A stretch of 64,000 nt of DNA, taken from sequence record OR776998. One strand, given 5' to 3'. Shown piece after piece: positions 7,491 through 58,143 of this stretch; the stretch's first letter is position 1; each line of letters starts with the position of its first letter. Origin of the DNA: Escherichia phage YX22. The notes below the pieces were generated by a model. That model had not been told where the DNA came from, made no database searches, and worked only from the letters and a program-made list of their open reading frames with translations. The position numbers and the translations under genes are program-made.

Positions 7491-8963
7491 TTAGTTCAAG
7501 ACATATTTGATCAGTCCACAATTCCAAATCCTGACCAACCCGGCTTCGGTTGCTAATTGGCTTTCTGTTTTGCCTTCTACGTCATACCCCATGCGAGCAA
7601 ATGAACCTTTTCTGAAACCGAATTTGTGCTCACGCATAAATGTGCCAGGCTTGTGATATTTGTAGTCTGGCTTCTGTACTTCCTCTTCTACGAATCCGTG
7701 GGATAGGTAAATGTTGGACAACCTGCTTACAACACACCTATCCCCAAAGGAATAGATTTTGGTGCCGGTAAATTTTCTTCTGAAGTGTGAAAGAAGTTTA
7801 CTGAATGCCCCGTGGCAATCATTAGAGGCAAATCTGACTAATTCCAGGCCATCTTTCCTTTTAGTGAATAGCATCACGGCTTGTATGGCCCCACTCTTGT
7901 CAATTAACGACAAATGGTGGGTGGAAGAAACGGAACCTTGTATGTGGTGGTTGTCTAAAAACTCCCTCAAGCCGCTTATATTTCCCCAAACGACTTTGTG
8001 TTGGCGAGCATATGACGCAGGCGTTTTAATTCCAAGTTTAGCTTTCAGAAGAGATTTTACCACTTCCTGTTTCTCAACCCATTCATCTTCCCAGATGTGG
8101 ATCAACTGGATACCCTGAGTTTCACATATTTCAGTCTTTTCCAGGTGATAATGTTTCTCTTTAAAAACTTCTGAATGCCAGTACAGGCCATTAAATTCAA
8201 TCGCCAATTTGTGTTCAGGGCAATAGATATCCAGTTGTTTACCGGATAATATACTGTAATCAGAAACAGTGTTTACAACTCCCATTGATGTGAGAAACTC
8301 GGATATTTCCTTTTCATAAGAAGATTTCTTGTTCCTGATAGAACCATTGCTGAACAACGCACGTTTTAGTATGTTCGAATTTTTCATAGGGTTGTCAACA
8401 CCATAACGTTCTTGTAACGTTGCCAACGCCTTCTCCCTCACACCAGGTAATTGTAGTGTGGAGCAGCTTCCGTATTTGGATATATTCGAAGTCTCTATGG
8501 CTTTCCGACCAATCCCACCTTTACACATAGAAACCTGATAACATTCTTCAGAACAATATGTTCTGTAATCTTTATTATTGATGTAAAAGTTGGTTTCCTT
8601 GGAACACACCGGGCATATTTTCACGGTTCTATTGTACAGCCAAGCTGTGACTTTACAAGCCAAATCTTGTAGGGTGTTGTGGGTATTGGCGAACACTAAA
8701 AGGTCTACATTGATGTGCTTCATAAGCAGTTCAGATTTGCATTTTTGGATATCCAATTTGTTGTTCTTGGTAAACATATATTTGTAGAAAAATTGGCGAT
8801 ATGATTCCTCGTCAGACAATTCATTCACTGCTTCAAGGAAACCTTCCGGGAGGTTCTTTAGGGTGTTCGATGCGAAGGTCTTGCAAGCATCTGAACAAAA
8901 TTTCTTATCTTTCCTGGATGCTTTGAACTGTTCATGGCAGACACTACAGATTACCTGATACAT
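7491..8963 (-). CDS. Zn-ribbon plus endonuclease-like protein (free-standing homing endonuclease candidate)
   Basis: CxxC..CxxC pairs at N-terminus and mid-protein; LAIEFNGLYWH resembles Vsr/DUF559-type PD-(D/E)xK motif; start at ATG 8963 with GGAGGAG SD; sits where T4 has segD/hoc-type inserts. Confidence 0.4.
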   Translation of the reverse strand: MYQVICSVCHEQFKASRKDKKFCSDACKTFASNTLKNLPEGFLEAVNELSDEESYRQFFYKYMFTKNNKLDIQKCKSELLMKHINVDLLVFANTHNTLQDLACKVTAWLYNRTVKICPVCSKETNFYINNKDYRTYCSEECYQVSMCKGGIGRKAIETSNISKYGSCSTLQLPGVREKALATLQERYGVDNPMKNSNILKRALFSNGSIRNKKSSYEKEISEFLTSMGVVNTVSDYSILSGKQLDIYCPEHKLAIEFNGLYWHSEVFKEKHYHLEKTEICETQGIQLIHIWEDEWVEKQEVVKSLLKAKLGIKTPASYARQHKVVWGNISGLREFLDNHHIQGSVSSTHHLSLIDKSGAIQAVMLFTKRKDGLELVRFASNDCHGAFSKLLSHFRRKFTGTKIYSFGDRCVVSRLSNIYLSHGFVEEEVQKPDYKYHKPGTFMREHKFGFRKGSFARMGYDVEGKTESQLATEAGLVRIWNCGLIKYVLN

Positions 8964-9067: not shown

Positions 9068-10390
9068 TTAGAAAAGTCCTTTAATTAACCCTTTGCGGAA
9101 ATACACGTTGGTGTCCTTGGCGATACCATCCGCAGTCACATAGACCTGTGGATCCTGGTTCGCTGGGATCTGAACGAATGGGTTAGCACAAATCCCGTAG
9201 CGGGTCTTGAACGCCATACGTGGTGCGAAGGTGGTTTCACCCTGGGTGCGGTACATTTCCAGCGGTACATACGGTGCGAAGAAGATACCAGCATCCAGCG
9301 CGGTTGCGCCTTTGTATGCCAGGGTGATGTATTCTGCTACTGCATACGGGTCGATGTAGACACGCATACCGTTAGACAGCACACCAGCGAAGGTCTGGCC
9401 AGTCGGATCAATCGCCAGCTTGGTGTTTTCCTGCAGCGCCGGAGCATAATCCAGCATGCCGGACATCGCCAGAGCGGATGCTACGTTCGGGGAGCACAGA
9501 ACACGGTTGCCTTTACCACGACGGGTGTCAACACCGATGCCGTTCGCTTCGACTTCCAGCATGAAAGTCATGTACTTCCATTTTTCCAGCGCCCAACGAC
9601 CGGAGATGTCAGTGGAGATATCTACGATACCGTTGGTGCCGAATTTTTTGAAGCGTACTGCGCTGAAGTTCATGGTGCGGATAAACTCACGGTTCATCTC
9701 TGCCTGAATTTCAGTTACCATCACGTCGGACAGGATGCTGTCAACGTCTTCGCCGTGGATCGCCATCATGTCCTGGCGCAGTTCGTGGCTGTAGTCAGCG
9801 TACAGGCCGCGAGACTTCGCAGTCACGGTTGCTTTCTGAACGGTGATACCAACACGTGCCCATGGGTTGGTGGTGGTGCCCAGCAGTTCAGCGTCGGAGG
9901 TTGACATGCCTTTACCGATGGTGGTGGTAGCAGCGCCGGAACCTTCGATTTCAGTCTGGGAGAAGCCAGATGGGTCGCCAGCCTGTGCAGTATCGTCACC
10001 GGAGTAACCGGAGTTGGCTTCGTTCATGAACAGCTCAGCGCGGGACTGGGCAGTGTTGGAGCCGTCTGCAACGCCCTGGCGAGCACGCAGTGCGAAGATC
10101 TGACCGTCAGGACCAGACAGCGGCTGAACGCCGAAGAAGTCCATCGCGATGTTGACCGGAGCCAGACGTTTGGCCATGTCGATCAGGACTGGCTGCCATT
10201 TGCCCACAGAGGCGTTCACGGAGCCAGGAGCGTCGGATTCGCCCAGGTTTTTGGCGTTCCACTCAGCCTGGTTTTGCAGCAGACGGACGGCAACGTTTTC
10301 GGCAGAAAGCGGCTGGATGCTTTCAGATTCTTTCTGAAGAACTGGCAGCCACTGCTCGCGCATTTGTTCGGTAACAAGTTTCTTAGCCAT
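9068..10390 (-). CDS. gp23: major capsid protein, T4 gp23 family
   Basis: FGVQPLSGPDGQIFALRA, KSRGLYADYSHELRQD, KTRYGICANPF and C-terminal YFRKGLIKG align with recalled T4 gp23; start at second ATG (AAGGA SD). Confidence 0.9.
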   Translation of the reverse strand: MAKKLVTEQMREQWLPVLQKESESIQPLSAENVAVRLLQNQAEWNAKNLGESDAPGSVNASVGKWQPVLIDMAKRLAPVNIAMDFFGVQPLSGPDGQIFALRARQGVADGSNTAQSRAELFMNEANSGYSGDDTAQAGDPSGFSQTEIEGSGAATTTIGKGMSTSDAELLGTTTNPWARVGITVQKATVTAKSRGLYADYSHELRQDMMAIHGEDVDSILSDVMVTEIQAEMNREFIRTMNFSAVRFKKFGTNGIVDISTDISGRWALEKWKYMTFMLEVEANGIGVDTRRGKGNRVLCSPNVASALAMSGMLDYAPALQENTKLAIDPTGQTFAGVLSNGMRVYIDPYAVAEYITLAYKGATALDAGIFFAPYVPLEMYRTQGETTFAPRMAFKTRYGICANPFVQIPANQDPQVYVTADGIAKDTNVYFRKGLIKGLF

Positions 10391-10447
10391 GATGGTCATT
10401 CCTTACATTGATATTCAGTTAAGTTGAAATTACTTAGTAGTTCAAAA

Positions 10448-11378: not shown

Positions 11379-12047
11379 TCAGCCCAGATGTTTCAATGCG
11401 ATATCGAGGCGGCGCAGGAAGTCGTCTTCTAACTGAATATTGGTTTTCACCAATGAATCGACCACATGCCCCTTAATGTCCTTAGGAACCCAAATTCCTG
11501 AAGATTCATCAAGCTGCCATTCCACAGATTCGCTCACAGCCTTTACATAACAAACTTGTCCAGAAGGACGGTCGACTGCATCAACAGCAGTGAGCATAAA
11601 GCCGGGTTGAACGTCATCATAGCCGTTCACTGACTTGGTCTCACCAAGGCCACGTGTAGACACGGCCAGGTTGAAGTCTGCTTCAGCCAGAGCACGAATG
11701 ATCTGACCTTTCGGTGTATTCAGGATCCGCGCTCGACCGATAGCGTTGGTGCCTTCCCAGCGCAAAGATTCGGTTTTGAGTGCAGCGTGTTCGATATCGG
11801 GGAAAGGATAATCCGGATGCTTGAGTTCACCGATTGCACGACGATCCTGGATATACTCTTTGTCGTATGCTTCGACAGCAGGGATACCCACCTTTTGGAG
11901 ATCGTAGTTGCGACCATTACGGTTCACCTGGTTACACATCACGAATGGACCTTCGATGTACATGGCCTTGCCGCCAGTAGCCGTGGCCGCTTCACCAATC
12001 TGAAGGTCTTTCCCTATCGCAGTGATCTCACGCAACAGTTTCATCAT
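11379..12047 (-). CDS. gp21: prohead core protease, gp21-like
   Basis: AIGELKHPDYP and VSTRGLGE match T4 gp21 ALGELNHP and VSSRGLGS; AAGGAG SD. Confidence 0.85.
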   Translation of the reverse strand: MMKLLREITAIGKDLQIGEAATATGGKAMYIEGPFVMCNQVNRNGRNYDLQKVGIPAVEAYDKEYIQDRRAIGELKHPDYPFPDIEHAALKTESLRWEGTNAIGRARILNTPKGQIIRALAEADFNLAVSTRGLGETKSVNGYDDVQPGFMLTAVDAVDRPSGQVCYVKAVSESVEWQLDESSGIWVPKDIKGHVVDSLVKTNIQLEDDFLRRLDIALKHLG

Positions 12048-12580: not shown

Positions 12581-14275
12581 TTATTCTTCACCACCAGGAG
12601 GGTTAGTCGCTGGGATGACGTTAGGTCTGAATTTCAGTGGACTGACTTCCCCGCTGCCGAAGCCGCCGGACTCATCTGCCTGTACTTCAGGATATTTGCC
12701 TTCTTTCTTCTCTTTCGCGATCTTCTCTTGCTGGTCTTTGATGTCTTCATCAGACATGCGCAGCAGATTGCGTTGAGCAAAATCGATAGAGAAGAGAGTG
12801 CCGATATATGGTTCGATCTGACCGAGAGCCGCCATACGCTGCGACAAGATTTCGTTCTCTTGTTGTTCACGGATGAAGCTGTCAGAAGTGAATTCGAACT
12901 TGACGAACGGCTTGATCTTCTCATTCCAGTCAGCCTGGTCTGTAATGCCTTTTAATATCAGATGGCGACGCAGAAGTTCCAGGAAGATACCAGAAGAATA
13001 ACGACGGCGCAGGCTCGCACAGAACTTGTTGAAGCGCAATTCTTCCTGCGTAATTTCAGCAAGATTGGAACCACCGATGTTGATGGAACCTTCCTCTTGC
13101 AGGCGGCTCTTAGGGATCATCAGAGCCTCGTAGAGTTTCTCGCGGAAGTATACCACATGATCCATTTGACCCAGTTGGTCGCCACCGCCTACGTTGGAGA
13201 TCTCGGTTGCGTTCTGTCCTTCGCGACGTGGTAGCCAGTAGTCCTCAGCGATACCCATCAAATGAGTGTTACCAGCCACCTTACCAGTGGTGCGATCATA
13301 CGCCAGACGGTTCTTGAATTTGCCCATCATGGCTTGCATGTATTCTTCGGCCGACTTCTTACCCAGCGTACCCACGTCGAGATAGAACGCTCGCTTCTCA
13401 GGAGCACGTGTGATCGCATAGATCACCGTTGCATCTTCAGTTGTAACAAGGTTGTTCAGGGGACGGATAGCTGGGTTCAGCAGGCTTGGTACAACCCCAT
13501 TCGCCAGAGGCTCTTCACCACTGTCCAGATACACTATGCTCTCATCATCAAACACCAGCTCTTGCTGTGACGGTTGGAAGTTCTGAGACGTACCGGACTG
13601 GCCAGTGAATTGGTTGCGGTTGTAGTTCGGGTTGTAGTAGTATTGAAGTTTTACGTCATTGATGACTTCGATACCGTCGCGCATCGCTTTTTGAACGATG
13701 TACACTGGGCGGATACAGCGTGAGTCCATCATGATGAGTTTGGCGATACCCGCTTTCTTGTTCTTCGGGTCCACTACAACGTGGAATGCCTGACGGCCTT
13801 CAATATACCATTTGCGGATCTTCTGATACGCCGTGTTGTCAAAGTCAAGGAGATGCATGATCTCTTTGAATGCGTCAGTGATCTTCTCTTTGACTTCGTC
13901 TGTGATGCCATCTACCTTTTCCAGGTTGATGGTTACAGGAGTCTCTTCCTCTTCACAGGTGACGATGTCGTTGACAATGATATCCACAGCTTTACGAATC
14001 TCAGGCTGCTGAGCCATAGACTGGTACTCTTCGACCAGCTGTTTGACGTTGAGCAACTCATTCTCAACACCAACGAAATTGAATGTGTTCGCGCCGCCCT
14101 GGAGGATGATCGAGCCATCCTGAGAATCGTCCAGCGCAACAACAGTCGCTTTTGAAAGCAACTTCTCTTCTTGGTTCGTGACCATCTTGTCGGTATCAAT
14201 CGGCGCTTCTACTTTGCCGCCTCTACCGAACAGGCCGAAGAACCCATTTCCGAATGCACCATTTCCGAATGCCAT
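12581..14275 (-). CDS. gp20: portal protein, gp20-like
   Basis: 564 aa, positioned as T4 gene 20 between tube and core genes; GAGGA SD. Confidence 0.8.
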   Translation of the reverse strand: MAFGNGAFGNGFFGLFGRGGKVEAPIDTDKMVTNQEEKLLSKATVVALDDSQDGSIILQGGANTFNFVGVENELLNVKQLVEEYQSMAQQPEIRKAVDIIVNDIVTCEEEETPVTINLEKVDGITDEVKEKITDAFKEIMHLLDFDNTAYQKIRKWYIEGRQAFHVVVDPKNKKAGIAKLIMMDSRCIRPVYIVQKAMRDGIEVINDVKLQYYYNPNYNRNQFTGQSGTSQNFQPSQQELVFDDESIVYLDSGEEPLANGVVPSLLNPAIRPLNNLVTTEDATVIYAITRAPEKRAFYLDVGTLGKKSAEEYMQAMMGKFKNRLAYDRTTGKVAGNTHLMGIAEDYWLPRREGQNATEISNVGGGDQLGQMDHVVYFREKLYEALMIPKSRLQEEGSINIGGSNLAEITQEELRFNKFCASLRRRYSSGIFLELLRRHLILKGITDQADWNEKIKPFVKFEFTSDSFIREQQENEILSQRMAALGQIEPYIGTLFSIDFAQRNLLRMSDEDIKDQQEKIAKEKKEGKYPEVQADESGGFGSGEVSPLKFRPNVIPATNPPGGEE

Positions 14276-14340: not shown

Positions 14341-14874
14341 TTAGAGAGACTTGTCTGAGATGGCCTGGAAGTAACGCAGGTCAACAGTGAACTGAGTATA
14401 AGAGTCCATTGCAGACATGTCCAGTTCCAGCTGACCGAGGTTCTGAGGCCAGGTGCCCTGAAGGGTCCAGGTCTTGGTGACGTTGTCATTCGCATCCAGC
14501 AGTTCCATGATTACATCACGGAAATAATCATCTGGGTTAGCAGACGCACGGTTGTTGTTGCTGCCGTTGATGTACTGCTGCCAGACTTCGAATGCGTTGT
14601 ACGGGGCGTTGTCCACGACGTTGATGAACGTCACAGGCAGCGCCTCGAAACGACGGTCACCTGGGAATGGAAGTTCACGACCACCCCATGGGACGAGTAT
14701 TTCTCCGAGCTGGCCTGTTGGGGTATTTGTGGTCACCGCCAACAGCGAAACATCACGGATAGTATCGCTTCCAGCCACGAAGGAAGGGAAGTTAACAGTC
14801 ACACGCCAACGGTGTTGGCGCTGAACGCCACCCCCGCGTGACATAGCTGCTCTGAATTCATTAACTGTAGCCAT
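14341..14874 (-). CDS. gp19: tail tube protein, gp19-like
   Basis: C-terminal LQGTWPQNLGQLELD..TQFTVDLRYF parallels T4 gp19 IKGLWPTNVGELQLD..QTFEVTLALDYWE. Confidence 0.8.
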   Translation of the reverse strand: MATVNEFRAAMSRGGGVQRQHRWRVTVNFPSFVAGSDTIRDVSLLAVTTNTPTGQLGEILVPWGGRELPFPGDRRFEALPVTFINVVDNAPYNAFEVWQQYINGSNNNRASANPDDYFRDVIMELLDANDNVTKTWTLQGTWPQNLGQLELDMSAMDSYTQFTVDLRYFQAISDKSL

Positions 14875-14894: not shown

Positions 14895-15608
14895 TTACAC
14901 AATTCTAATTAGCTGCCAACCCGTCGTGTTCAAACGCTCTGCGGTCGCAGTTTTCCTATGATACACAGACGGTGGTGGAACTGGAATACCCTTGTCGATG
15001 TAATCATAGAGTGCTGAATATTTAAGTCCCAACCTCTCCACATATTCACGACAGTTCCCGTGGATTTCGTGTTCTTCACCGGAAGGAGATACCAATTTGA
15101 ATCGCTTTGCATGACCGTTGTTCTTGCCCTTTCTGATTCCAGTTTCAATGCATTTTCGACTAAATGATAATTTACCTTCTTCTTTCCATTCAACCCCGAT
15201 CCGACAGCTAATGATTTCTCCTGTTTTCCACCGTGGATCATCGCAATCAACTAAACCGAGATGTTCACCAGTAGAAGTCAAAACTGCTCCGTGTTTATTG
15301 GAAAATGTGGACCCGTCTCCACCCCAGGTCTTGTTGTACCCTTTCTGAGTTGACATGTGGGTTCCGTGTTGCTTTATAAGAATGATTTCCAATTCTTTTA
15401 GATCTTCCAGGGATTTGGTCTGGGCTAACACTTGAACAGAAAAGGACTCTTCTCCGTACTTTCTTATTGCTTGGTGAATAAAGTAATCAGATCCCTTCTG
15501 AGCACTATTGCAGTGCTCCCACCACCTTTGCATAGGGTCTCTCGTCGTTATCCCAATATAGGCTTTCTGATTTACTAGATTTGTAATTTTGTAAACACTT
15601 CCGATCAT
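14895..15608 (-). CDS. GIY-YIG homing endonuclease inserted between sheath and tube genes
   Basis: N-terminal VYKITN..KAYIGIT GIY-YIG motif; 237 aa; interrupts conserved gp18-gp19 adjacency. Confidence 0.7.
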   Translation of the reverse strand: MIGSVYKITNLVNQKAYIGITTRDPMQRWWEHCNSAQKGSDYFIHQAIRKYGEESFSVQVLAQTKSLEDLKELEIILIKQHGTHMSTQKGYNKTWGGDGSTFSNKHGAVLTSTGEHLGLVDCDDPRWKTGEIISCRIGVEWKEEGKLSFSRKCIETGIRKGKNNGHAKRFKLVSPSGEEHEIHGNCREYVERLGLKYSALYDYIDKGIPVPPPSVYHRKTATAERLNTTGWQLIRIV

Positions 15609-15690
15609 TTCGATGCTCTCTCAGTAAAATCGTTCCATTTTAACCCGCGAGAGACCATTGAAATGCCCTCCGAAGAGGGCATGGGGTAAA

Positions 15691-17586
15691 TTAAGAAGCG
15701 GCTACGATACCACCACCGGATTCGATCTCACTGAATTCCATGTCTGGACGCACGGAAGCAAAATCAAGATACACCCAATTTATACTGTATTCTGGTTTCA
15801 GCCAGATACCCGCGACCATGGTGTTGGCTGCGATAACATCAGCGGTGTTGTTGTCCTCGTCACACTTCACCATCCCGTCATAGATCGCGCCCATGTTGGC
15901 CAACTGGCGGATATATGGGCGGACAGCGTTGCTGAACAACCCACGAGTGAATGCATCGTTGTTCTCACCAAGGTAGTATTTGGCGATGGCTGCGATGTTC
16001 TGCTCTGCCATAATGAACAGACCACGAACGTTGATGCGGTCGAACGCAGATGGGCGGGTCAGACCAGTCTTGTCGCCGTACAACACGATGCCTTCGTTGG
16101 AGAAGGTGACGATGCTGTTTATCTGGTTGCGATACAGCACAGCACGCTCATCAGAAGACGCAGACCACGCCATTCGATTATAGTTGTTGTATTTACCACG
16201 GTTGTGGAACGCCGGAGATTTGTAGATACCCGCGATTTCAATGCTTCGCGCCCAAACACCTGCGGTGCCACCACAAGCCGGAATCCAACGCATTTTGTCG
16301 TTGTACTTGTCGTACACATACGCCCAGTTGTCATCCATGAAGAAGTAGGAGGAGTCGCGAACAAGGCTTTCACGCCAGGCCACAACATCATCCATCTCAC
16401 GGCCACGGTTTCCGACGACCGTATCGCGAAGAGGAGACACGAAGGACACTGTGTCTTTACGCTCAGTGGACAGGTCGATCAGTGCCTGCTGCTCAATCAG
16501 TTCTTCACAGAAACCGAACACTGGCTTGGCATCATACGCTTCGGCGTTGTTCAGTGCCTGGATAGCCGCAACACGGTTCCCAGTGTAATCGTCTACACCA
16601 CCTTCGAGTTCAATCACACCAGCAGCCAGGGTAGTGGCGAAGGTGTACACCCAATTTGAGTTGCCGTTGATCACGTCTTTGAAGTACGCATTGGATCCAT
16701 CAGATTTCTTAGAACCCTGAGCGGTCTGCACCAGTTCATACTTCTCGATGATCGTACCGGAAGCACCAACAGTGGTGACGGCAGCGGTAGCAGTCAGACC
16801 ATTCGCGTCTGGAACAATCGCAGTCGCAGCCTGAGGACCGATTGCTTTGTGAGTGACGGTGACGGTGTTGGACTTCACGACAACAGAAGAATACACGTCA
16901 GTCAGAGCCGTCAACGCAGTGCCGATTTTGGTCGCCAGGGTGGCCGGGGTGTCAGTGTCAGTGTACGCCACGTCTTCGCCAGCAACAGAGATTGAGCCTG
17001 CACCAGTAGCCGTACCGGATACAGAGATACGATCAACCTGACCAACAGCACCGGAAGAATCTGTGATGCGACCTACTTTGTCAACGATGGCGATATGGTA
17101 CTCGCCATCCTGCGGAGCATATGCGAAGTTGTTACGGAATTCCCAGGTCGGGAACAGCGCAGCGTCACAGATGTTCACAGCAATGTCGTTACCCAGAGAG
17201 CCAGCATAGCGGCCTGTCCAGGTAATAGACGCAGATGGGGACGCAGTTTCGAAGTCTAGTTTGTTGCGGATAAGGATTGCAGTCTGACCTTTGGTTACAG
17301 CGTTGCGTGCCGCCGGACCGACCACACGGGTCACCCATGCAACAGAGCTGTAAGACAGGAAGTCAGCAATCACCAAGAAGTCGGTGGCAGTTGCATCGTT
17401 TGGCTTGAAGAATTTCTTCACCAGACCAGTTTCGCCACCAGTGACCAACACAGGGAGTTCTGCTTCACCCCATTGGAATTTGCCGACAGTCGCACCCTGA
17501 ACAACAACGGATGGAGACGTCTGAAGCGTGGCATCACGCTCAGTCCACTGTACGGACGGCGCAACGCTGAAGCTTTGAGTTGCCAT
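15691..17586 (-). CDS. gp18: tail sheath protein, gp18-like
   Basis: 631 aa from ATG 17586 (AAGGAA SD); size and position match T4 gp18; late motif upstream. Confidence 0.85.
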   Translation of the reverse strand: MATQSFSVAPSVQWTERDATLQTSPSVVVQGATVGKFQWGEAELPVLVTGGETGLVKKFFKPNDATATDFLVIADFLSYSSVAWVTRVVGPAARNAVTKGQTAILIRNKLDFETASPSASITWTGRYAGSLGNDIAVNICDAALFPTWEFRNNFAYAPQDGEYHIAIVDKVGRITDSSGAVGQVDRISVSGTATGAGSISVAGEDVAYTDTDTPATLATKIGTALTALTDVYSSVVVKSNTVTVTHKAIGPQAATAIVPDANGLTATAAVTTVGASGTIIEKYELVQTAQGSKKSDGSNAYFKDVINGNSNWVYTFATTLAAGVIELEGGVDDYTGNRVAAIQALNNAEAYDAKPVFGFCEELIEQQALIDLSTERKDTVSFVSPLRDTVVGNRGREMDDVVAWRESLVRDSSYFFMDDNWAYVYDKYNDKMRWIPACGGTAGVWARSIEIAGIYKSPAFHNRGKYNNYNRMAWSASSDERAVLYRNQINSIVTFSNEGIVLYGDKTGLTRPSAFDRINVRGLFIMAEQNIAAIAKYYLGENNDAFTRGLFSNAVRPYIRQLANMGAIYDGMVKCDEDNNTADVIAANTMVAGIWLKPEYSINWVYLDFASVRPDMEFSEIESGGGIVAAS

Positions 17587-17625
17587 AATCTTATTCCTTC
17601 TCTGTAGAGTTTCGCTCAATTTGAA

Positions 17626-17640
17626 AGATATTTAGTGATC
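17626..17640 (-). promoter_or_regulatory. late-promoter-like motif upstream of tail sheath gene
   Basis: Minus strand GATCACTAAATATC about 45 nt before ATG 17586. Confidence 0.45.
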
Positions 17641-19858
17641 ACCGTCTCAGCCATTCTTCCATAGACATACCAGAGCGTTCATCATAAACCTGAATTCCAC
17701 CGAACCCTGAGATGTTCTCCACAGAGTGAGGATCTGGCGTCGACATCATACCCCCAAATGGTAGCATCTGAGATTCTTCCATCGCAGACAACCGTCCTCT
17801 CATGTCCACAGAGATATTTGAATTGGTGAGATCACTAAACCATTCTTGTTTCACCGCCCATGCATACAACACGAGGGGCATTACACAGTCATCATGACAA
17901 CCATCATCGGCTTCATACCTTGTTCCAGTCCATACGAATGTACTGAGTTCATCTATCGTGTCCTGGTCATCTATCACCAGCATTTCACGTTCAATCAGGG
18001 CTTTCAGGTTGGCACAGCCGTTTGTGCGCACCTTCTTGTTGGTATTGATACCAGGTTCAGGGCGGCGACCACCGATTCTCTTGCCTGTACCCTTGGTATC
18101 TGTTGTGGTGAAGATGATCTCTGGATATTCAATTTCTTGGTATAGAATTGTGATTACCTGACCACCCACGTCGTTGTTGGTCTCGACTAGCATCGGGCAC
18201 GTTCCATACTTCTCACCCATATCGGCGATTGTGTACGCATACATCATTGGAGGTATCGTGTTATTTCGATACTTGGCTGCGATCTTGTGAGGATAGTCTG
18301 TGATGTCGATAATGGTCAGCACAGAATAATCCCCTTCGACACCCTTGCCTGTATCTGCGATACCCATATAGATGCGCTTAGGATCGTAGTCGTGATAAAT
18401 CTTGGTGAACTCGTTCGGCTCCTGATACAGCTTCGAGGTCATCTTGTCCAGACACTTGGCAGGTATCAGTGATCCCACAGAACCACGGAACTTAATGCCA
18501 AATTCTTGATCGAAACGTGCATCACCCAGCTTCGCCCTTTGTTTGGATTCCCAGTCTGGATCTTTGGTGTACGTTGGAACACGATACCATGGGACCTCGG
18601 TGAGTTTGAAGTCGTTGTATTGTGGGTGTTCTGGGTTCGCCTTGGTGACGATGTCGTAGAACAACCCGCGCTGACCTTTCGGCGTACTGGTCAGAATACA
18701 ACGTGAAGTCTCTGCAGATGCAATCGCCGGGAATGTAGACTCCCAGAATTCAAAGTCGTTTTCAATGAACGCCACTTCGTCCACATACAGGAGCGATACA
18801 GATCGACCACGGATGGAGTCGGAAGATGTCGCATAGGCGTAGATCTTTGATCCGTTTTCGAACTCTATCAGCGTGGAACCGAACTTCTCACAACCCTGTT
18901 GGAGGAAGAATGGCAAATCTTGATATGCTTTGCGAATACGATCTAGGATTTCAATCGCCTGCTTCTCTTTGTTCGCCAGTACTGCGATCTCTTTGTCGGA
19001 GTGGAACATCGCATACCAGAGCAGGAACGCTGCCACGACAGTCGTGTTGTGGCTGAGGAAGCCGTTGGTGTAGTAGCGCTGATCACTAGATTTCACCTGT
19101 AGGTCATACATGTGATGCGTCTCACCAGTCTGCCAAACCTCACGGATTTCTTCTGGACCTTCTGACGTCATGATGTATGACCCAGCATTCAGGTCTTTGG
19201 CAAATATCTCCTTCATTTCCGGAGTGAAGAATATATGTTCGTCGGCCACGTTAATTCGCCGCCCAGTAACAGTCACAATAACGAATTCCGCATATTTCTT
19301 CGTCTTATGCGCTGCGATAACCGGAACCCAGCCACTATCGGATTGCACAAAGTAACGTTTGCCGAAGCGGCTGTCCACGAACTTGTCATGGTTGCCAATG
19401 GTATTCAGCGGCACAGCGTGGTTGACGTCCTCGAAGCGGCTGTGAAGCTCCCCTATGGTCAGGAGCAACTGCTCTTGGCTGAGAGTATCGTAAACTGTGA
19501 CAAGCGTGTCACCTTTTACACATTTCCCAGACTGACGAGCCTGGACGACCGCATTGAATCGATAGTCCTGGAAGTCATGGAACAACTGCTTCTGGTAATC
19601 GTGCATGTCAAAGAGGATGAAGCCTTTATCGATGGTCGTGATCTTGTAGTAGTTGGCGGCGAAGTAATGGGCGTCCATCGCACACTCGACGAACTCCGAT
19701 TCTTGTTCGTCGGTTAGCATCAACTCCACACGAGGTGCACGCACAGACGGCTTGCGCATGAACGTTTGGTCCATACGCAGTCTGACGTCTTCTGTCTTAA
19801 ACCCCGTCTTGAGCGGGGCGTATTCTACATCACGCTTCTGATACGCCATTGTCTTCAC
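17639..19858 (-). CDS. gp17: terminase large subunit gp17-like, interrupted by an in-frame mini-intein
   Basis: Walker A reads QARQSGK then 159 aa then T; flanks align with T4 gp17 ATPase and nuclease regions. Confidence 0.9.
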   Translation of the reverse strand: MKTMAYQKRDVEYAPLKTGFKTEDVRLRMDQTFMRKPSVRAPRVELMLTDEQESEFVECAMDAHYFAANYYKITTIDKGFILFDMHDYQKQLFHDFQDYRFNAVVQARQSGKCVKGDTLVTVYDTLSQEQLLLTIGELHSRFEDVNHAVPLNTIGNHDKFVDSRFGKRYFVQSDSGWVPVIAAHKTKKYAEFVIVTVTGRRINVADEHIFFTPEMKEIFAKDLNAGSYIMTSEGPEEIREVWQTGETHHMYDLQVKSSDQRYYTNGFLSHNTTVVAAFLLWYAMFHSDKEIAVLANKEKQAIEILDRIRKAYQDLPFFLQQGCEKFGSTLIEFENGSKIYAYATSSDSIRGRSVSLLYVDEVAFIENDFEFWESTFPAIASAETSRCILTSTPKGQRGLFYDIVTKANPEHPQYNDFKLTEVPWYRVPTYTKDPDWESKQRAKLGDARFDQEFGIKFRGSVGSLIPAKCLDKMTSKLYQEPNEFTKIYHDYDPKRIYMGIADTGKGVEGDYSVLTIIDITDYPHKIAAKYRNNTIPPMMYAYTIADMGEKYGTCPMLVETNNDVGGQVITILYQEIEYPEIIFTTTDTKGTGKRIGGRRPEPGINTNKKVRTNGCANLKALIEREMLVIDDQDTIDELSTFVWTGTRYEADDGCHDDCVMPLVLYAWAVKQEWFSDLTNSNISVDMRGRLSAMEESQMLPFGGMMSTPDPHSVENISGFGGIQVYDERSGMSMEEWLRR
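19046..19522 (-). mobile_element. mini-intein (Hint domain, no endonuclease domain) inside TerL Walker A
   Basis: Starts Cys (CVKGDTLV), ends His-Asn followed by Thr that completes GK-T; 159 codons by arithmetic from ORF start. Confidence 0.75.
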
Positions 19859-46804: not shown

Positions 46805-46878
46805 GGTCCTGTAGCTCAGTCGGTTAGAGCAGTGAACTCATAATTCATTGGTCGTTGGTTCAAATCCAACCAGGATCA
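46805..46878 (+). tRNA. tRNA-Met (anticodon CAU; initiator, elongator or Ile2-type not resolved)
   Basis: Cloverleaf read by hand: acceptor GGTCCTG/CAGGATC, D-arm GCTC..GAGC, anticodon loop CTCATAA, T-arm GTTGG-TTCAAAT-CCAAC, CCA encoded. Confidence 0.8.
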
Positions 46879-47134: not shown

Positions 47135-47220
47135 GGAAGGTTGCCCGAGAGGTTTAAGGGACTCGACTGCTAATCGAGTGGGGCTTTTAGCCCCCGAAGG
47201 TTCGAATCCTTCACCTTCCG
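47135..47220 (+). tRNA. tRNA-Ser (anticodon GCU)
   Basis: Acceptor GGAAGGT/ACCTTCC, anticodon stem CTCGA/TCGAG with loop CTGCTAA, long variable arm, T-arm GAAGG-TTCGAAT-CCTTC, CCA encoded. Confidence 0.8.
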
Positions 47221-56239: not shown

Positions 56240-56545
56240 GTGCAAGAACAATCCAAGTTTGGGGAAACCCCAGACAAGCGTTCCGGTGATAGCGACATGG
56301 ATAGCGTGATTAACCATGTGAACAACTTCATTCGTCAGCAGGAGACTCCAACTCCTATCGGTGCAGCCAAGGCTCTTCATGATGTACTGGTGAAGATCGG
56401 CCAGCGCTCTGAAGCGGATGAAATCTTCTATAACTTTGAAGACCAGTATAAAGTGAAGTTTGAAGAAAACGGTCGTCCGCAGGTTGCTGTGTTCTGGGCA
56501 CCTTGGCTGGGCGGCGTGAGCTGGCGTATTGAGGATGCTGTGTGA
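56240..56545 (+). CDS. hypothetical protein
   Basis: 101 aa ORF, overlaps next gene start. Confidence 0.5.
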   Translation: MQEQSKFGETPDKRSGDSDMDSVINHVNNFIRQQETPTPIGAAKALHDVLVKIGQRSEADEIFYNFEDQYKVKFEENGRPQVAVFWAPWLGGVSWRIEDAV

Positions 56546-58143
56546 TGTCTCGCTACCATTACACATATAGGATAACCCATGTCCCAACTGGTAGATTCTA
56601 CGTCGGGATTCGGTCTTGTTCATGCACCCCCGAACAAGATCCCTATATGGGTTCTGGTGTGATCATCAAAAGGTTGTTGGAATCTCACCCCGCTTCTGAA
56701 TTCTTAAAGACGATAATAGAAAAGTTTGAAACCAGGTTGGAAGCATCCGACCTGGAGTCTATTATTGTTACGGAAGAGTTACTGTTGGACCCATTATGCC
56801 TGAACCTGAAATTGGGAGGAGACAATTCTATCATCCCAAACCAATTTAAGGCGGCGTTGGCTAGGACTGGCAAGAAATACAAATCTGGTATAAATCCTTG
56901 GGATGATCCAGAATACCGGGAACGTGTAATAAAATCAATAAAGGAGAACAGGGGTAATTCTCCCTACCCATTCATGGTTTCAAATGGTTATTGGTGGGTT
57001 TGGAAGGACGCCTGTAGGATCTATGATAGATGGGTGAACAACGGTGGTACTGTGAATCCTACCTGTATGCCAAAACGAGGATGTGGTTACAAATCTATCG
57101 GATTGTGGTATTCTAAACTACTGGACACAGAGTATCGTAATCTAAAGGGCGATGAGAGCGTCTTTCGTAATATGATCGCCATGTTTAAAGATGGTTGGAT
57201 TCCCAAAGAGGACAAACGTTTTATGACTATGATAAATTCTAGCGTGACGCCGGGTATTGTCGTTATTCGCGGGACAAGTGGAACGGGAAAGGGGACTCGT
57301 GTCGTTCAATTCCTTGAGTGGTTGAGAACCAAATATGAGCCAGAACTCATAGAATACGAATTCGACAAGAAGATGATCCAGGTTGGGTTTTGGTTCAAGG
57401 AAATCAATCTGGTGTTCATCGGCAAGTATACAGTGTCCAACAAATCAGGTCTAGCATCATGGACTTCCATGGATTTCATACACTCCACTCTCAAGTCTTC
57501 TGAGATGGCCAATTCGTTGTTGAAGTATCTCAAAATAAAGTTCAAAGATGCAACTATCATCTTGGAGGGGGAACCTATGATGCAGAGCCATCGTTGGCGT
57601 CCCGAGTTCGTACACCAGGACTTGGGGTTCAACAACATGGCATTCATCTCCTTTATTTACCAAGCGCGGGAAGATTACGACAAACGTATCATCGGTCGTT
57701 CTGGTAAGGCGGCGAAGGACACTGGCTGGGGAAGAAATGAACAATACACCAAGGATCACGTCAAGATCATGGGTGAGTACGCTTCCATCGGATACGAACT
57801 TGAACCAGACTCTCAGAATGAGTTGTTCATTGCAAAGGCAGCGAATGAAAATGGTGTAAAGGCAGTTGGTTGGAATATACTGAAATTCTTCGATGCCCCT
57901 CTCCACTTTATTGGTAGTTTTATTATAGATTTTGTTGGATTGAGAGGGTTGTCCAAAGAAGAGTTTCAAAAATATTGCGACACCACACCAATGTTGCGCA
58001 AGATTAAGGGTAGCAACCCTTTGGCGCACAGAGTCCCTGAGAAGCCGCAGAAGGCATCCAAAACTAAAACCAAGGCGAGCGCCCAGCCAGAAGCAACGAA
58101 GGCAGCGTCGCGCTCTCTCCTTGACCTGATGAAGAAGGGGTGA
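56542..58143 (+). CDS. GIY-YIG endonuclease domain in frame with a P-loop NMP-kinase-like domain (fusion, or two genes with kinase start near 57223)
   Basis: N-terminus YHYTYRITHVPTGRFYVGI..YMGSG; downstream GTSGTGKGT Walker A; internal ATG 57223 preceded by AGAGGA. Confidence 0.55.
   Translation: MMSRYHYTYRITHVPTGRFYVGIRSCSCTPEQDPYMGSGVIIKRLLESHPASEFLKTIIEKFETRLEASDLESIIVTEELLLDPLCLNLKLGGDNSIIPNQFKAALARTGKKYKSGINPWDDPEYRERVIKSIKENRGNSPYPFMVSNGYWWVWKDACRIYDRWVNNGGTVNPTCMPKRGCGYKSIGLWYSKLLDTEYRNLKGDESVFRNMIAMFKDGWIPKEDKRFMTMINSSVTPGIVVIRGTSGTGKGTRVVQFLEWLRTKYEPELIEYEFDKKMIQVGFWFKEINLVFIGKYTVSNKSGLASWTSMDFIHSTLKSSEMANSLLKYLKIKFKDATIILEGEPMMQSHRWRPEFVHQDLGFNNMAFISFIYQAREDYDKRIIGRSGKAAKDTGWGRNEQYTKDHVKIMGEYASIGYELEPDSQNELFIAKAANENGVKAVGWNILKFFDAPLHFIGSFIIDFVGLRGLSKEEFQKYCDTTPMLRKIKGSNPLAHRVPEKPQKASKTKTKASAQPEATKAASRSLLDLMKKG

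What the first reader, a model, noticed from the sequence alone, without database searches (positions are those of the whole stretch)
14895..15608. Homing endonuclease gene inserted between tail sheath and tail tube genes
A 237-aa GIY-YIG ORF interrupts the otherwise T4-like gp18-gp19 adjacency. Together with the endonuclease-like ORF after gp23, the GIY-YIG domain at 56542 and the TerL intein, the window carries at least four selfish-element signatures.
Basis: partly seen in the sequence, partly recalled or inferred. Interest (0 to 1): 0.45.

Follow-up and report, generated by a model that had tools for sequence, protein, structure and literature searches.

The report
Free-standing GIY-YIG homing endonuclease gene
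A selfish, mobile nuclease gene sits between the tail sheath and tail tube genes of this Vi1-like (Ackermannviridae) phage; it is real and looks functional, but it is an ordinary, already annotated kind of element.

Summary
Window 14895-15608 (minus strand) is an intact 237-aa ORF with a GIY-YIG nuclease domain. It lies between the tail sheath (15691-17586) and tail tube (14341-14874) genes of an Ackermannviridae phage that is 98.4% identical to Escherichia phage vB_EcoM-RPN242. In RPN242 the same gene is already annotated as "GIY-YIG endonuclease".

The gene is not universal at this site. Related phages have an empty 81-84 nt spacer, this gene, a shorter 152-aa paralogue, both in tandem, a small-ORF cassette, or (LIMEstone1) an unrelated Hef-like endonuclease next to a 39-aa remnant of this gene.

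The roughly 740-bp cassette sits exactly between the sheath terminator hairpin and the tube gene's late-promoter motif, and the ORF ends inside that motif. GC content is 43% against 53% in the flanks. dN/dS is 0.03-0.3, and the catalytic residues never vary. The allele is a mosaic of three lineages. In HEG+ genomes the last ~130-160 nt of the sheath gene differ from otherwise ~100% identical HEG-less relatives, which looks like a co-conversion tract. [quoted passage not shown]

Best reading: a Seg-like free-standing homing endonuclease that spreads by intronless homing. Cleavage activity and target site are untested. Interest is low.

The parts
14895..15608 (-). Homing endonuclease ORF, 237 aa. 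It has an N-terminal GIY-YIG catalytic domain (about aa 1-98, nt 15315-15608), a variable linker (about aa 100-165) and a conserved C-terminal putative DNA-binding domain (about aa 165-237, nt 14898-15116).
   Evidence: The ORF is. Family matches are Pfam, PHROG and NCBIfam. The I-TevI alignment shows Y6, Y17, R28, H32, E74 and N92, and these are invariant in 19-25 homologues. The AF2 model has pLDDT 82.7, and its best PDB matches are I-TevI 1mk0/1ln0, with I-HmuI 1u3e fourth. dN/dS is 0.03-0.3.
15606..15665 (-). Predicted leader hairpin. CAUUUCAAUGGUCUCUC pairs with GAGAGAGCAUCGAAAUG, which sequesters the Shine-Dalgarno sequence (15616-15622) and the AUG (15606-15608).
   Evidence: Fold energy is -22.1 kcal/mol with z=-3.2, and z=-3.0 in the wider context. 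The outer stem is identical in 13 loci and is kept in the D5lw-type variant with a deleted loop and in the LIMEstone1 remnant. The 7-sequence alignment shows no covariation, so the structure is predicted, not proven.
15663..15682 (-). Terminator-like hairpin after the sheath gene (AUGCCCUC-UUCG-GAGGGCAU). It is native to Agtrevirus-type empty sites and travels with the cassette into other genera.
   Evidence: LIMEstone1 carries both its own terminator (CCCCGCTTTGGCGGGG) and this hairpin next to the endonuclease remnant. The simple terminator scan did not call it, because the U-tract is weak.
14913..15655 (-). Extent of the inserted cassette relative to empty sites (about 740 bp). The left junction follows TTTCAATG. 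The right junction precedes (GGCAG)CTAATTAG and is ambiguous by about 5 nt.
   Evidence: Alignment of the intergenic regions of 15 phages and coordinates.
14905..14912 (-). Late-promoter-like motif CTAATTAG for the tube gene. It is native intergenic sequence, and the endonuclease ORF's last six codons and stop (CTA ATT AGA ATT GTG TAA) overlap it.
   Evidence: The motif CTAAWTAB occurs 18 times against 6.8 +/- 2.9 expected, and no shuffle out of 100 reached 18. It lies within about 10-40 nt upstream of the start codons of about a dozen structural genes. It is conserved in empty, long-HEG and short-HEG sites. Its promoter function is inferred by analogy with T4-type late promoters.
15691..15850 (-). 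The 3' end of the sheath gene, a mosaic segment that looks like a co-conversion tract. The protein is conserved here while the nucleotides are shuffled between lineages.
   Evidence: The window is about 100% identical to AV101 down to about 15850, then 77-87%. HEG+ ChubbyThor is 100% identical to HEG- Ag3 and P46FS4 down to about 15820, then 73-90% to the stop codon, while the tube side is 100% identical from the junction onwards.
15691..17586 (-). Tail sheath gene (gp18 homologue), 631 aa.
14341..14874 (-). Tail tube gene (gp19 homologue), 177 aa.

Best explanation
The ORF is a free-standing GIY-YIG homing endonuclease gene of the Seg / I-TevI type, carried on a cassette of about 740 bp. The cassette sits in the sheath-tube spacer, exactly between the sheath terminator hairpin and the tube gene's late promoter, so neither flanking gene is disturbed.

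Inferred mechanism: during mixed infection with a related phage that lacks the cassette, the two-part enzyme (an N-terminal nuclease tethered to a C-terminal DNA-binding domain) cuts the cassette-less allele at or just upstream of the insertion point, probably in the last ~150 nt of the sheath gene or at the terminator. Recombinational repair from the cassette-bearing genome then copies the gene, together with the adjacent sheath 3' end and terminator, into the cut genome (intronless homing with co-conversion). Expression is probably low and late: read-through from the sheath late promoter, with translation throttled by a hairpin that hides the ribosome-binding site and start codon.

Shown here: the domain identity, the exact position of the insertion, the presence/absence and replacement polymorphism, the mosaic flanks, and purifying selection.

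Inferred only: cleavage activity, the target site, the role of the hairpin and the promoter function of the motif.
For: Domain and fold:
- GIY-YIG profile matches.
- I-TevI catalytic residues are conserved (Y6, Y17, R28, H32, E74, N92) and invariant across the family.
- The AF2 model matches the I-TevI catalytic domain (TM 0.83). The whole-chain model's fourth-ranked match is the HNH homing endonuclease I-HmuI (prob 0.99, E=0.013); which part of the model it aligns to was not printed, so assigning it to the C-terminal half is my inference.

Mobility signatures:
- Related phages have empty sites; the spacer is 81-84 nt in the four read.
- The same junctions are used in all carriers.
- At least six occupancy states exist for this one spacer.
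- GC is 42.7% against 53% in the flanks.
- Gene and flanks disagree phylogenetically. AV101 has tube 100% and sheath 98.6% identical but the endonuclease only 81%. Kuttervirus KE27 has sheath 91.9% but the endonuclease 90.8%.
- The allele is a domain-level mosaic: the N-terminus resembles ChubbyThor, the linker KE27 and the C-terminus AV101.
- The foreign tract is one-sided, covering the last ~130-160 nt of the sheath gene in HEG+ genomes compared with HEG- Agtrevirus genomes.

Function retained:
- dN/dS is 0.03-0.3 in both domains.

HEG life cycle:
- LIMEstone1 keeps a 39-aa internally deleted remnant with its leader, beside a different endonuclease.

Regulation and known precedent:
- The leader hairpin is conserved.
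- Embedded downstream promoters, RBS-sequestering hairpins and cleavage sites distant from the gene are all documented features of T4 seg/mob genes (PMC2988022).
Against: - No biochemical or genetic test of cleavage or homing exists for this protein or any close homologue that I could find.
- The target site is unknown.
- The C-terminal domain matches no Pfam model. Its DNA-binding role rests on a weak structural match, analogy and conservation.
- The hairpin stem is invariant, so it shows no covariation.
- The one-sided divergent tract could also reflect ordinary recombination at a variable spacer rather than repair of an endonuclease-made break.
- Most family members carry some insert here, so few naive targets may remain in nature.
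Confidence: 0.85

Rival explanations
1. The gene is a retained or domesticated nuclease that no longer homes. On this reading it persists because the tube gene's promoter is embedded in its 3' end, or because it benefits the phage, for example by excluding competitor genomes or by regulating the tube promoter.
For: The ORF overlaps the tube late-promoter motif. The T4 review notes that this arrangement favours retention. Most relatives already have an occupant at the site, so targets are scarce. Purifying selection is strong.
Against: The mosaic alleles, the gene/flank incongruence, the tandem 'super-invasion' states and the transfer of the Agtrevirus-type terminator into Kuttervirus and Limestonevirus all indicate recent movement. 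The promoter motif is native sequence that empty sites keep without the gene, so deleting the gene need not remove it.
Confidence: 0.1
2. It is an intron-encoded endonuclease, as the NCBIfam and JGI name 'group I intron endonuclease' suggests.
For: It matches TIGR01453 just above the cut-off. One database source names a homologue this way.
Against: The ORF lies between two complete, separate genes. The sheath and tube proteins are full length with their own stop, start and promoter. No group I intron, and no RNA family other than two distant tRNAs, reaches Rfam thresholds anywhere in the window. The TIGR01453 match covers only the nuclease domain (residues 3-96).
Confidence: 0.01
3. It is a housekeeping phage nuclease (for example host-DNA degradation or repair) that happens to have a GIY-YIG fold and is vertically inherited.
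For: GIY-YIG domains also occur in non-mobile enzymes (general knowledge; PMC1564403 is listed). The ORF is intact and conserved.
Against: It is absent from several close relatives that are viable phages. In the same species it is replaceable by an unrelated Hef-like gene (XF4 versus LIMEstone1). Only 69 phage records in the collection hold a full-length homologue, against about 264 records with >=80% identical sheath-tube flanks. GC is atypical and the history is mosaic.
Confidence: 0.04

Closest known systems
RPN242_gp149 'GIY-YIG endonuclease' of Escherichia phage vB_EcoM-RPN242 (OL656110), and its orthologues annotated in Ackermannviridae (for example 'putative homing endonuclease F-LimII' in Dickeya phage XF4, ChubbyThor gp196, SKML-39 G178_gp014)
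   Same: The RPN242 protein is 99.6% identical, at the same position and in the same orientation. The orthologues are 75-91% identical, have the same junctions and share the same leader.
   Different: Nothing of substance differs. This allele combines an N-terminal domain like ChubbyThor, a linker like KE27 and a C-terminus like AV101.
T4 Seg proteins (SegA-G), the free-standing GIY-YIG homing endonucleases that mediate intronless homing and marker exclusion
   Same: The gene is free-standing and intergenic. It has a GIY-YIG N-terminal domain and a separate C-terminal domain. A downstream gene's promoter is embedded in or adjacent to the ORF. An RBS-sequestering hairpin is present, as reported for segB. 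Flanking sequence shows co-conversion-like tracts (features listed in PMC2988022).
   Different: No seg gene is listed between genes 18 and 19 in the T4 table of PMC2988022 (only partly shown; otherwise my own knowledge). Sequence similarity is confined to the nuclease domain (SegE_GIY-YIG 17.3 bits, below the cut-off). Activity has not been tested here.
I-TevI (T4 td intron endonuclease; PDB 1mk0, 1ln0)
   Same: The catalytic domain fold and all catalytic residues match. The architecture, a nuclease joined to a DNA-binding domain by a linker, looks modular in the same way.
   Different: This gene is not in an intron. No zinc-finger linker is recognisable, since there are only 2-3 Cys in the linker. 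The C-terminal domain has no Pfam NUMOD or HTH match.
Short GIY-YIG endonuclease of Salmonella phage Vi01 (Vi01_159c, 152 aa; PHROG 5123), the commonest occupant of the same spacer
   Same: It is 44% identical over residues 5-132, including the linker motif TSTGEH-GLV..DPRW. It has the same orientation and also ends in the tube promoter motif.
   Different: It lacks the roughly 100-aa C-terminal domain. It can sit in tandem downstream of the long gene (D5lw, ECML-4). It may be an internally deleted derivative; that is an inference from weak 3'-end similarity.

Membership tests
GIY-YIG nuclease superfamily | Significant match to the GIY-YIG domain profile | tested here: met
   PF01541 at 36.7 bits against a cut-off of 22.6, E=5.4e-9. 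TIGR01453 at 56.8 bits against 56.05.
GIY-YIG nuclease superfamily | Catalytic residues: the two Tyr of GIY/YIG, plus Arg, His, Glu and Asn (I-TevI Y6, Y17, R27, H31, E75, N90) | tested here: met
   Y6, Y17, R28, H32, E74 and N92 align to I-TevI. They are invariant in alignments of 19 and 25 homologues.
GIY-YIG nuclease superfamily | The alpha/beta GIY-YIG fold | tested here: met
   The AF2 model has pLDDT of about 90 in residues 1-98. Its top Foldseek hits are I-TevI 1mk0/1ln0, with TM 0.83 and rmsd 1.8-2.4 A.
GIY-YIG nuclease superfamily | Mg-dependent DNA cleavage | not testable with these tools
   This needs purified protein.
Free-standing homing endonuclease gene (Seg-like, intronless homing) | Located between genes, not within an intron or intein | tested here: met
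   The flanking genes are complete, and the cassette lies between the terminator hairpin and the tube promoter motif. There is no intron RNA family hit.
Free-standing homing endonuclease gene (Seg-like, intronless homing) | Presence/absence polymorphism at the same site among related genomes | tested here: met
   Sites are empty in P46FS4, Ag3, MK-13, Gloob, EspM4VN, phiEa2809 and the Vibrio relatives. All carriers use identical junctions.
Free-standing homing endonuclease gene (Seg-like, intronless homing) | Evolutionary history of the gene independent of its flanks, with co-converted flanking sequence | tested here: met
   The identity tables and sliding-window mosaics show this. The Agtrevirus-type terminator is carried into other genera.
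Free-standing homing endonuclease gene (Seg-like, intronless homing) | Site-specific cleavage of the gene-less allele, with the gene-bearing allele resistant | not testable with these tools
   The target site is unknown. I only infer that it lies near the sheath 3' end or the insertion point.
Free-standing homing endonuclease gene (Seg-like, intronless homing) | Preferential inheritance of the gene and nearby markers in mixed infection | not testable with these tools
   This needs phage crosses.
Group I intron-encoded endonuclease | The ORF is embedded in a self-splicing intron that interrupts a host gene | tested here: not met
   Rfam finds only two tRNAs in the window. The sheath and tube are separate, complete genes.

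The most novel reading that the evidence does not exclude
The most novel reading that my evidence does not exclude has three linked parts.

(1) The enzyme's conserved C-terminal domain recognises the invariant tube-gene late-promoter element (CTAATTAGAATTGTGTAAC) that abuts the insertion point, and the tethered nuclease cuts upstream of it.

(2) In carrier genomes the same binding would make the protein a regulator of tube-gene transcription, a dual endonuclease/repressor role like I-TevI autorepression.

(3) The domain-level shuffling seen between alleles (nuclease, linker and binding modules from three lineages), together with the tandem and replacement states, would then reflect an ongoing contest among several endonuclease families for one 80-nt spacer, with new linker/nuclease combinations re-opening already occupied sites.
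Probability: 0.1. Interest if true: 0.5.

Novelty: already known. Interest (0 to 1): 0.22.

Why it matters
It matters little as a discovery. The gene is already annotated in a near-identical phage, and homing endonucleases were already catalogued in this phage group in 2012 (LIMEstone1 paper, PMC3296691).

It has three modest uses:
- It marks a recombination hotspot that shuffles the 3' end of the sheath gene between genera. This matters when sheath sequences are used for Ackermannviridae phylogeny or taxonomy.
- The sheath-tube spacer shows many stages of the homing-endonuclease life cycle in sequenced isolates: empty, invaded, stacked, replaced and decayed. It would therefore make a convenient natural system for studying competition between endonuclease families.
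- These phages are used for biocontrol of Salmonella, E. coli and Dickeya, so cocktail designers may want to know that mixed infections could exchange this region.

Tried and rejected
- Late promoter inside the hairpin loop. I looked for the T4 I-TevI/segB arrangement, in which a late transcript would start inside the hairpin and free the RBS. The window's loop (GGGTTAAAATGGAACG) does not match the local late motif CTAAWTA. The D5lw-type leader lacks the loop entirely. Only the LIMEstone1 remnant has AATAAATACCC there. I rejected this for the window.\n- Empty Agtrevirus sites as deletion scars. I first thought the 17 nt of ORF 3' end kept in P46FS4 was a scar. The same element is present in every state, including EspM4VN and phiEa2809, and it matches the late-promoter motif. 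It is native sequence that the ORF reads into, so I rejected the scar idea.\n- Covariation support for the hairpin. None is available because the stem is invariant.\n- Pfam scan of the C-terminal 131 aa at E<=10. It gave no hit.\n- IMG/VR search for more diverse loci. They found nothing specific.\n- The sigma-70 promoter scan was uninformative.

Full report
**1. Observation**

The minus strand of the window carries an intact ATG-to-TAA ORF of 237 aa at 14895-15608, exactly as reported. It matches:
- Pfam GIY-YIG (E=5.4e-9, above the gathering score)
- NCBIfam TIGR01453 (56.8 bits against a 56.05 cut-off, nuclease domain only)
- PHROG 314 'homing endonuclease' over its whole length (E=8.7e-39)

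The same-strand neighbours are the large terminase (17639-19849), tail sheath (15691-17586), tail tube (14341-14874), portal (12581-14275) and prohead protease (11379-12047). The gene order is therefore T4-like apart from the extra ORF. GC content falls to 42.7% in the ORF, against 53.0% and 53.2% in the sheath and tube genes.

**2. What genome this is**

The region is 98.4% identical over 3.35 kb to Escherichia phage vB_EcoM-RPN242 (Ackermannviridae, Aglimvirinae). In that phage the same ORF (99.6% aa identity) is annotated 'GIY-YIG endonuclease'. A near-identical protein (listed as 100% but differing by at least one residue, K22 for T22) is also on a 153.6-kb contig filed under Salmonella enterica.

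Full-length homologues form a small family: 26 clusters at 45-100% identity, each 225-246 aa. In the phage collection, 69 records hold a full-length homologue, while about 264 records have sheath-tube flanks at 80% identity or more.

**3. The site in relatives**

I fetched 16 related loci and aligned the sheath-stop to tube-start spacer. At least six states exist:

| State | Examples |
|---|---|
| (a) Empty, 81-84 nt | Agtrevirus P46FS4, Ag3 and EspM4VN; Erwinia phiEa2809. MK-13, Gloob (one unbroken match to the empty site) and the Vibrio relatives (short span) also lack an insert; their spacers were not read |
| (b) This 'long' gene | RPN242, AV101, ChubbyThor, SKML-39, XF4, KE27 and others |
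| (c) A 152-aa 'short' GIY-YIG paralogue, the commonest state in the sampled listings | Vi01, Marshall, CBA120 |
| (d) Long and short genes in tandem | D5lw, ECML-4 |
| (e) A 100-aa ORF cassette, with the short gene or with another small ORF | Magnus, LHE287 |
| (f) An unrelated 596-aa Hef-like endonuclease on the opposite strand, plus a 39-aa internally deleted remnant of the long gene that keeps its leader | LIMEstone1 |

XF4 and LIMEstone1 belong to the same species yet carry different occupants. The gene is therefore not universal here, and the outgroups indicate that the empty state is ancestral.

**4. Anatomy of the insertion**

Empty sites read: sheath stop, terminator-like hairpin, AATTTCATTGAAGGCA, CTAATTAGAATTGTGTAAC, Shine-Dalgarno sequence, tube ATG. 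The cassette of about 740 bp (window about 14913-15655) lies between TTTCAATG and CTAATTAG.

The ORF's last six codons and its stop are native spacer sequence. That sequence contains the motif CTAATTAG at 14905-14912. The motif CTAAWTAB is over-represented in the window (18 hits against 6.8 +/- 2.9 expected) and lies within about 10-40 nt upstream of the start codons of about a dozen structural genes. I infer that it is the family's late promoter, equivalent to T4's TATAAATA. The cassette thus leaves both the sheath terminator and the tube promoter intact. This arrangement, including promoters embedded in endonuclease ORFs, is documented for T4 seg and mob genes (PMC2988022).

**5. The protein**

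Alignment to I-TevI places Y6, Y17, R28, H32, E74 and N92 on the catalytic residues, and these are invariant in the family. An AlphaFold model (mean pLDDT 82.7) shows:
- a confident N-terminal domain that superposes on the I-TevI catalytic domain (TM 0.83)
- a low-confidence linker
- a confident C-terminal beta/helical domain

The whole-chain model also gives a weaker match to the homing endonuclease I-HmuI (prob 0.99, E=0.013). I assign that match to the C-terminal part of the model by inference, because the aligned residues were not printed. The C-terminal half has no Pfam match. dN/dS against eight homologues is 0.03-0.3 in both domains, so the protein is under purifying selection.

**6. 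Signs of mobility and gene conversion**

- **Gene versus flanks.** AV101 has a tube protein 100% identical and a sheath protein 98.6% identical to the window, but its endonuclease is only 81% identical. Kuttervirus KE27 has a sheath 91.9% identical and an endonuclease 90.8% identical.
- **Mosaic allele.** Sliding-window comparison shows that the window matches AV101 at about 100% down to about 15850. Identity then falls to 37-87% until about 15120 and returns to 97-100%. Inside the divergent block, 15640-15400 is 95-100% like ChubbyThor, and 15225-15130 is 90-94% like KE27. The allele is a three-way mosaic whose breakpoints roughly follow the domain boundaries.
- **One-sided foreign tract.** Within Agtrevirus, HEG+ ChubbyThor is about 100% identical to HEG- Ag3 and P46FS4 through the sheath gene. 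Identity drops over the last ~130 nt (73-90%). On the tube side it is 100% from the junction onwards. The sheath protein is conserved across this tract while codons are swapped, for example AGT/TCA/TCC/AGC at one serine.
- **Terminator travels with the gene.** The Agtrevirus-type terminator hairpin accompanies the long gene into Kuttervirus and Limestonevirus, whose own terminators differ.

Together these fit repeated double-strand-break repair that copies the gene plus upstream sequence. That is the expected result when the cut lies at or upstream of the insertion point, as for T4 free-standing endonucleases. Nuclease genes at recombination boundaries have also been described in other phages (PMC10055350, listed).

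**7. Expression (inferred)**

Immediately after the terminator hairpin, CAUUUCAAUGGUCUCUC pairs with GAGAGAGCAUCGAAAUG, enclosing the Shine-Dalgarno sequence and the start codon (-22.1 kcal/mol, z=-3.2). The stem sequence is identical in 13 loci. The same outer stem forms in the D5lw-type leader, which lacks 23 nt of loop and has one compensatory C-G to A-U change, and in the LIMEstone1 remnant. Because the stem does not vary, there is no covariation evidence.

I found no late-promoter motif inside the loop in the window. The gene is therefore probably transcribed by read-through from the sheath late promoter (17628-17635) and translated poorly. RBS-sequestering hairpins are known for I-TevI, segB and mobE.

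**8. Comparison with what is known, and novelty**

This is a Seg-like free-standing GIY-YIG homing endonuclease gene. Every sequence-level defining feature I could test was met. Cleavage and preferential inheritance cannot be tested here.

It is not intron-encoded: there is no intron RNA and the flanking genes are complete. The LIMEstone1 paper (PMC3296691) already listed 14 putative homing endonucleases in that phage, including the occupant of this spacer. GenBank records already annotate the present gene. I found no paper describing the spacer as a multi-family hotspot, but that is an incremental observation.

**9.

- **ORF after gp23 (7491-8963).** It is a Hef-like endonuclease homologue (PHROG 3339, E=2.7e-156). 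It is 42% identical to LIMEstone1 F-LimVIII, the gene that occupies the sheath-tube spacer in that phage.
- **TerL intein.** TerL carries a 159-aa insert, C110 to N268, that splits the Walker A motif (ARQSGK|C...SHN|TTVV). The intein HMM hits are below threshold, so a mini-intein is likely.
- **'GIY-YIG domain at 56542'.** This is the N-terminal 235 aa of a 532-aa 5-hmdU DNA kinase ORF. It is GIY-YIG-like (PHROG 314, E=2e-24; 23% identity to the endonuclease) but lacks the catalytic Arg and His. It is a degenerate, fused domain rather than a free endonuclease gene.

Noticed in passing
window 56545-58143 (+): A 532-aa ORF fuses an N-terminal ~235-aa GIY-YIG-like domain (YRI...YVG) to a 5-hmdU DNA kinase (Pfam HMUD2, E=3.8e-156). 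The N-terminal domain matches PHROG 314 (E=2e-24) and PHROG 15209 (E=7e-130), and is 23% identical to the sheath-tube endonuclease. It lacks the catalytic Arg and His. A degenerate homing-endonuclease domain attached to a thymidine-hypermodification enzyme may be a domesticated DNA-binding module.
   Followed up: partly
window 19046-19522 (-), inside the TerL gene 17639-19849: A probable 159-aa mini-intein splits the terminase Walker A motif (ARQSGK | CVKGDT...GFLSHN | TTVV). Pfam Intein_splicing gives 28.8 bits and TIGR01445 gives 19.3 bits, both below their cut-offs. TerL is the same length (736 aa) in RPN242, P46FS4 and LHE287, so the insert looks fixed in this group.
   Followed up: partly
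window 7491-8963 (-): A 490-aa Hef-like homing endonuclease homologue lies just downstream of the major capsid gene (9068-10399). It matches PHROG 3339 (E=2.7e-156) and gives weak Vsr/DUF559/MTES_1575 hits. It is 42% identical to LIMEstone1 F-LimVIII, which occupies the sheath-tube spacer in that phage.
   Followed up: partly
L020 4321-4440 (-) (Dickeya phage LIMEstone1): An unannotated 39-aa mini-ORF (MITNSHIDSGPIPEVGIYQRKRATDLRLKTTGWQLIRIV) is an internally deleted remnant of the long GIY-YIG endonuclease. It still has the cassette's terminator hairpin and leader hairpin, and it sits next to the Hef-like F-LimVIII gene.
   Followed up: yes
L005 2830-3288 (-) (Vi01) and equivalents: The commonest occupant of the spacer is a 152-aa GIY-YIG protein, 44% identical to residues 5-132 of the long gene but without the C-terminal domain. 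Its 3' end reads RLKD*RLIRIV in another frame, which resembles the long gene's C-terminus. It may be an internally deleted, frame-shifted derivative.
   Followed up: partly
L003 4482-4784 (-) and 3993-4349 (-) (LHE287); L008 3354-3656 (-) (Magnus): A 100-aa ORF of unknown function (no Pfam or PHROG hit) occupies the same insertion point directly after the terminator hairpin. It is followed by a 118-aa PHROG 13016 protein in LHE287 and by the short endonuclease in Magnus. LHE287 is otherwise about 97% identical to the window here.
   Followed up: partly
window, minus strand: 1841, 11360, 14299, 14905, 17628, 21911, 28422, 33360, 36736, 39824, 43689 (start positions): The motif CTAAATAC/T (variant CTAATTA) recurs within about 10-40 nt upstream of structural genes. 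It occurs 18 times against 6.8 expected and is probably the late promoter of this phage group.
   Followed up: partly
window 46805-46878 (+) and 47135-47220 (+): Two tRNA genes are the only Rfam matches at gathering threshold in the window.
   Followed up: no
window 17587-17619 (-): The ORF lister extends the sheath gene to a TTG at 17619. All relatives start at the ATG at 17586 (MATQSFSV), and the late-promoter motif at 17628-17635 fits that start.
   Followed up: yes
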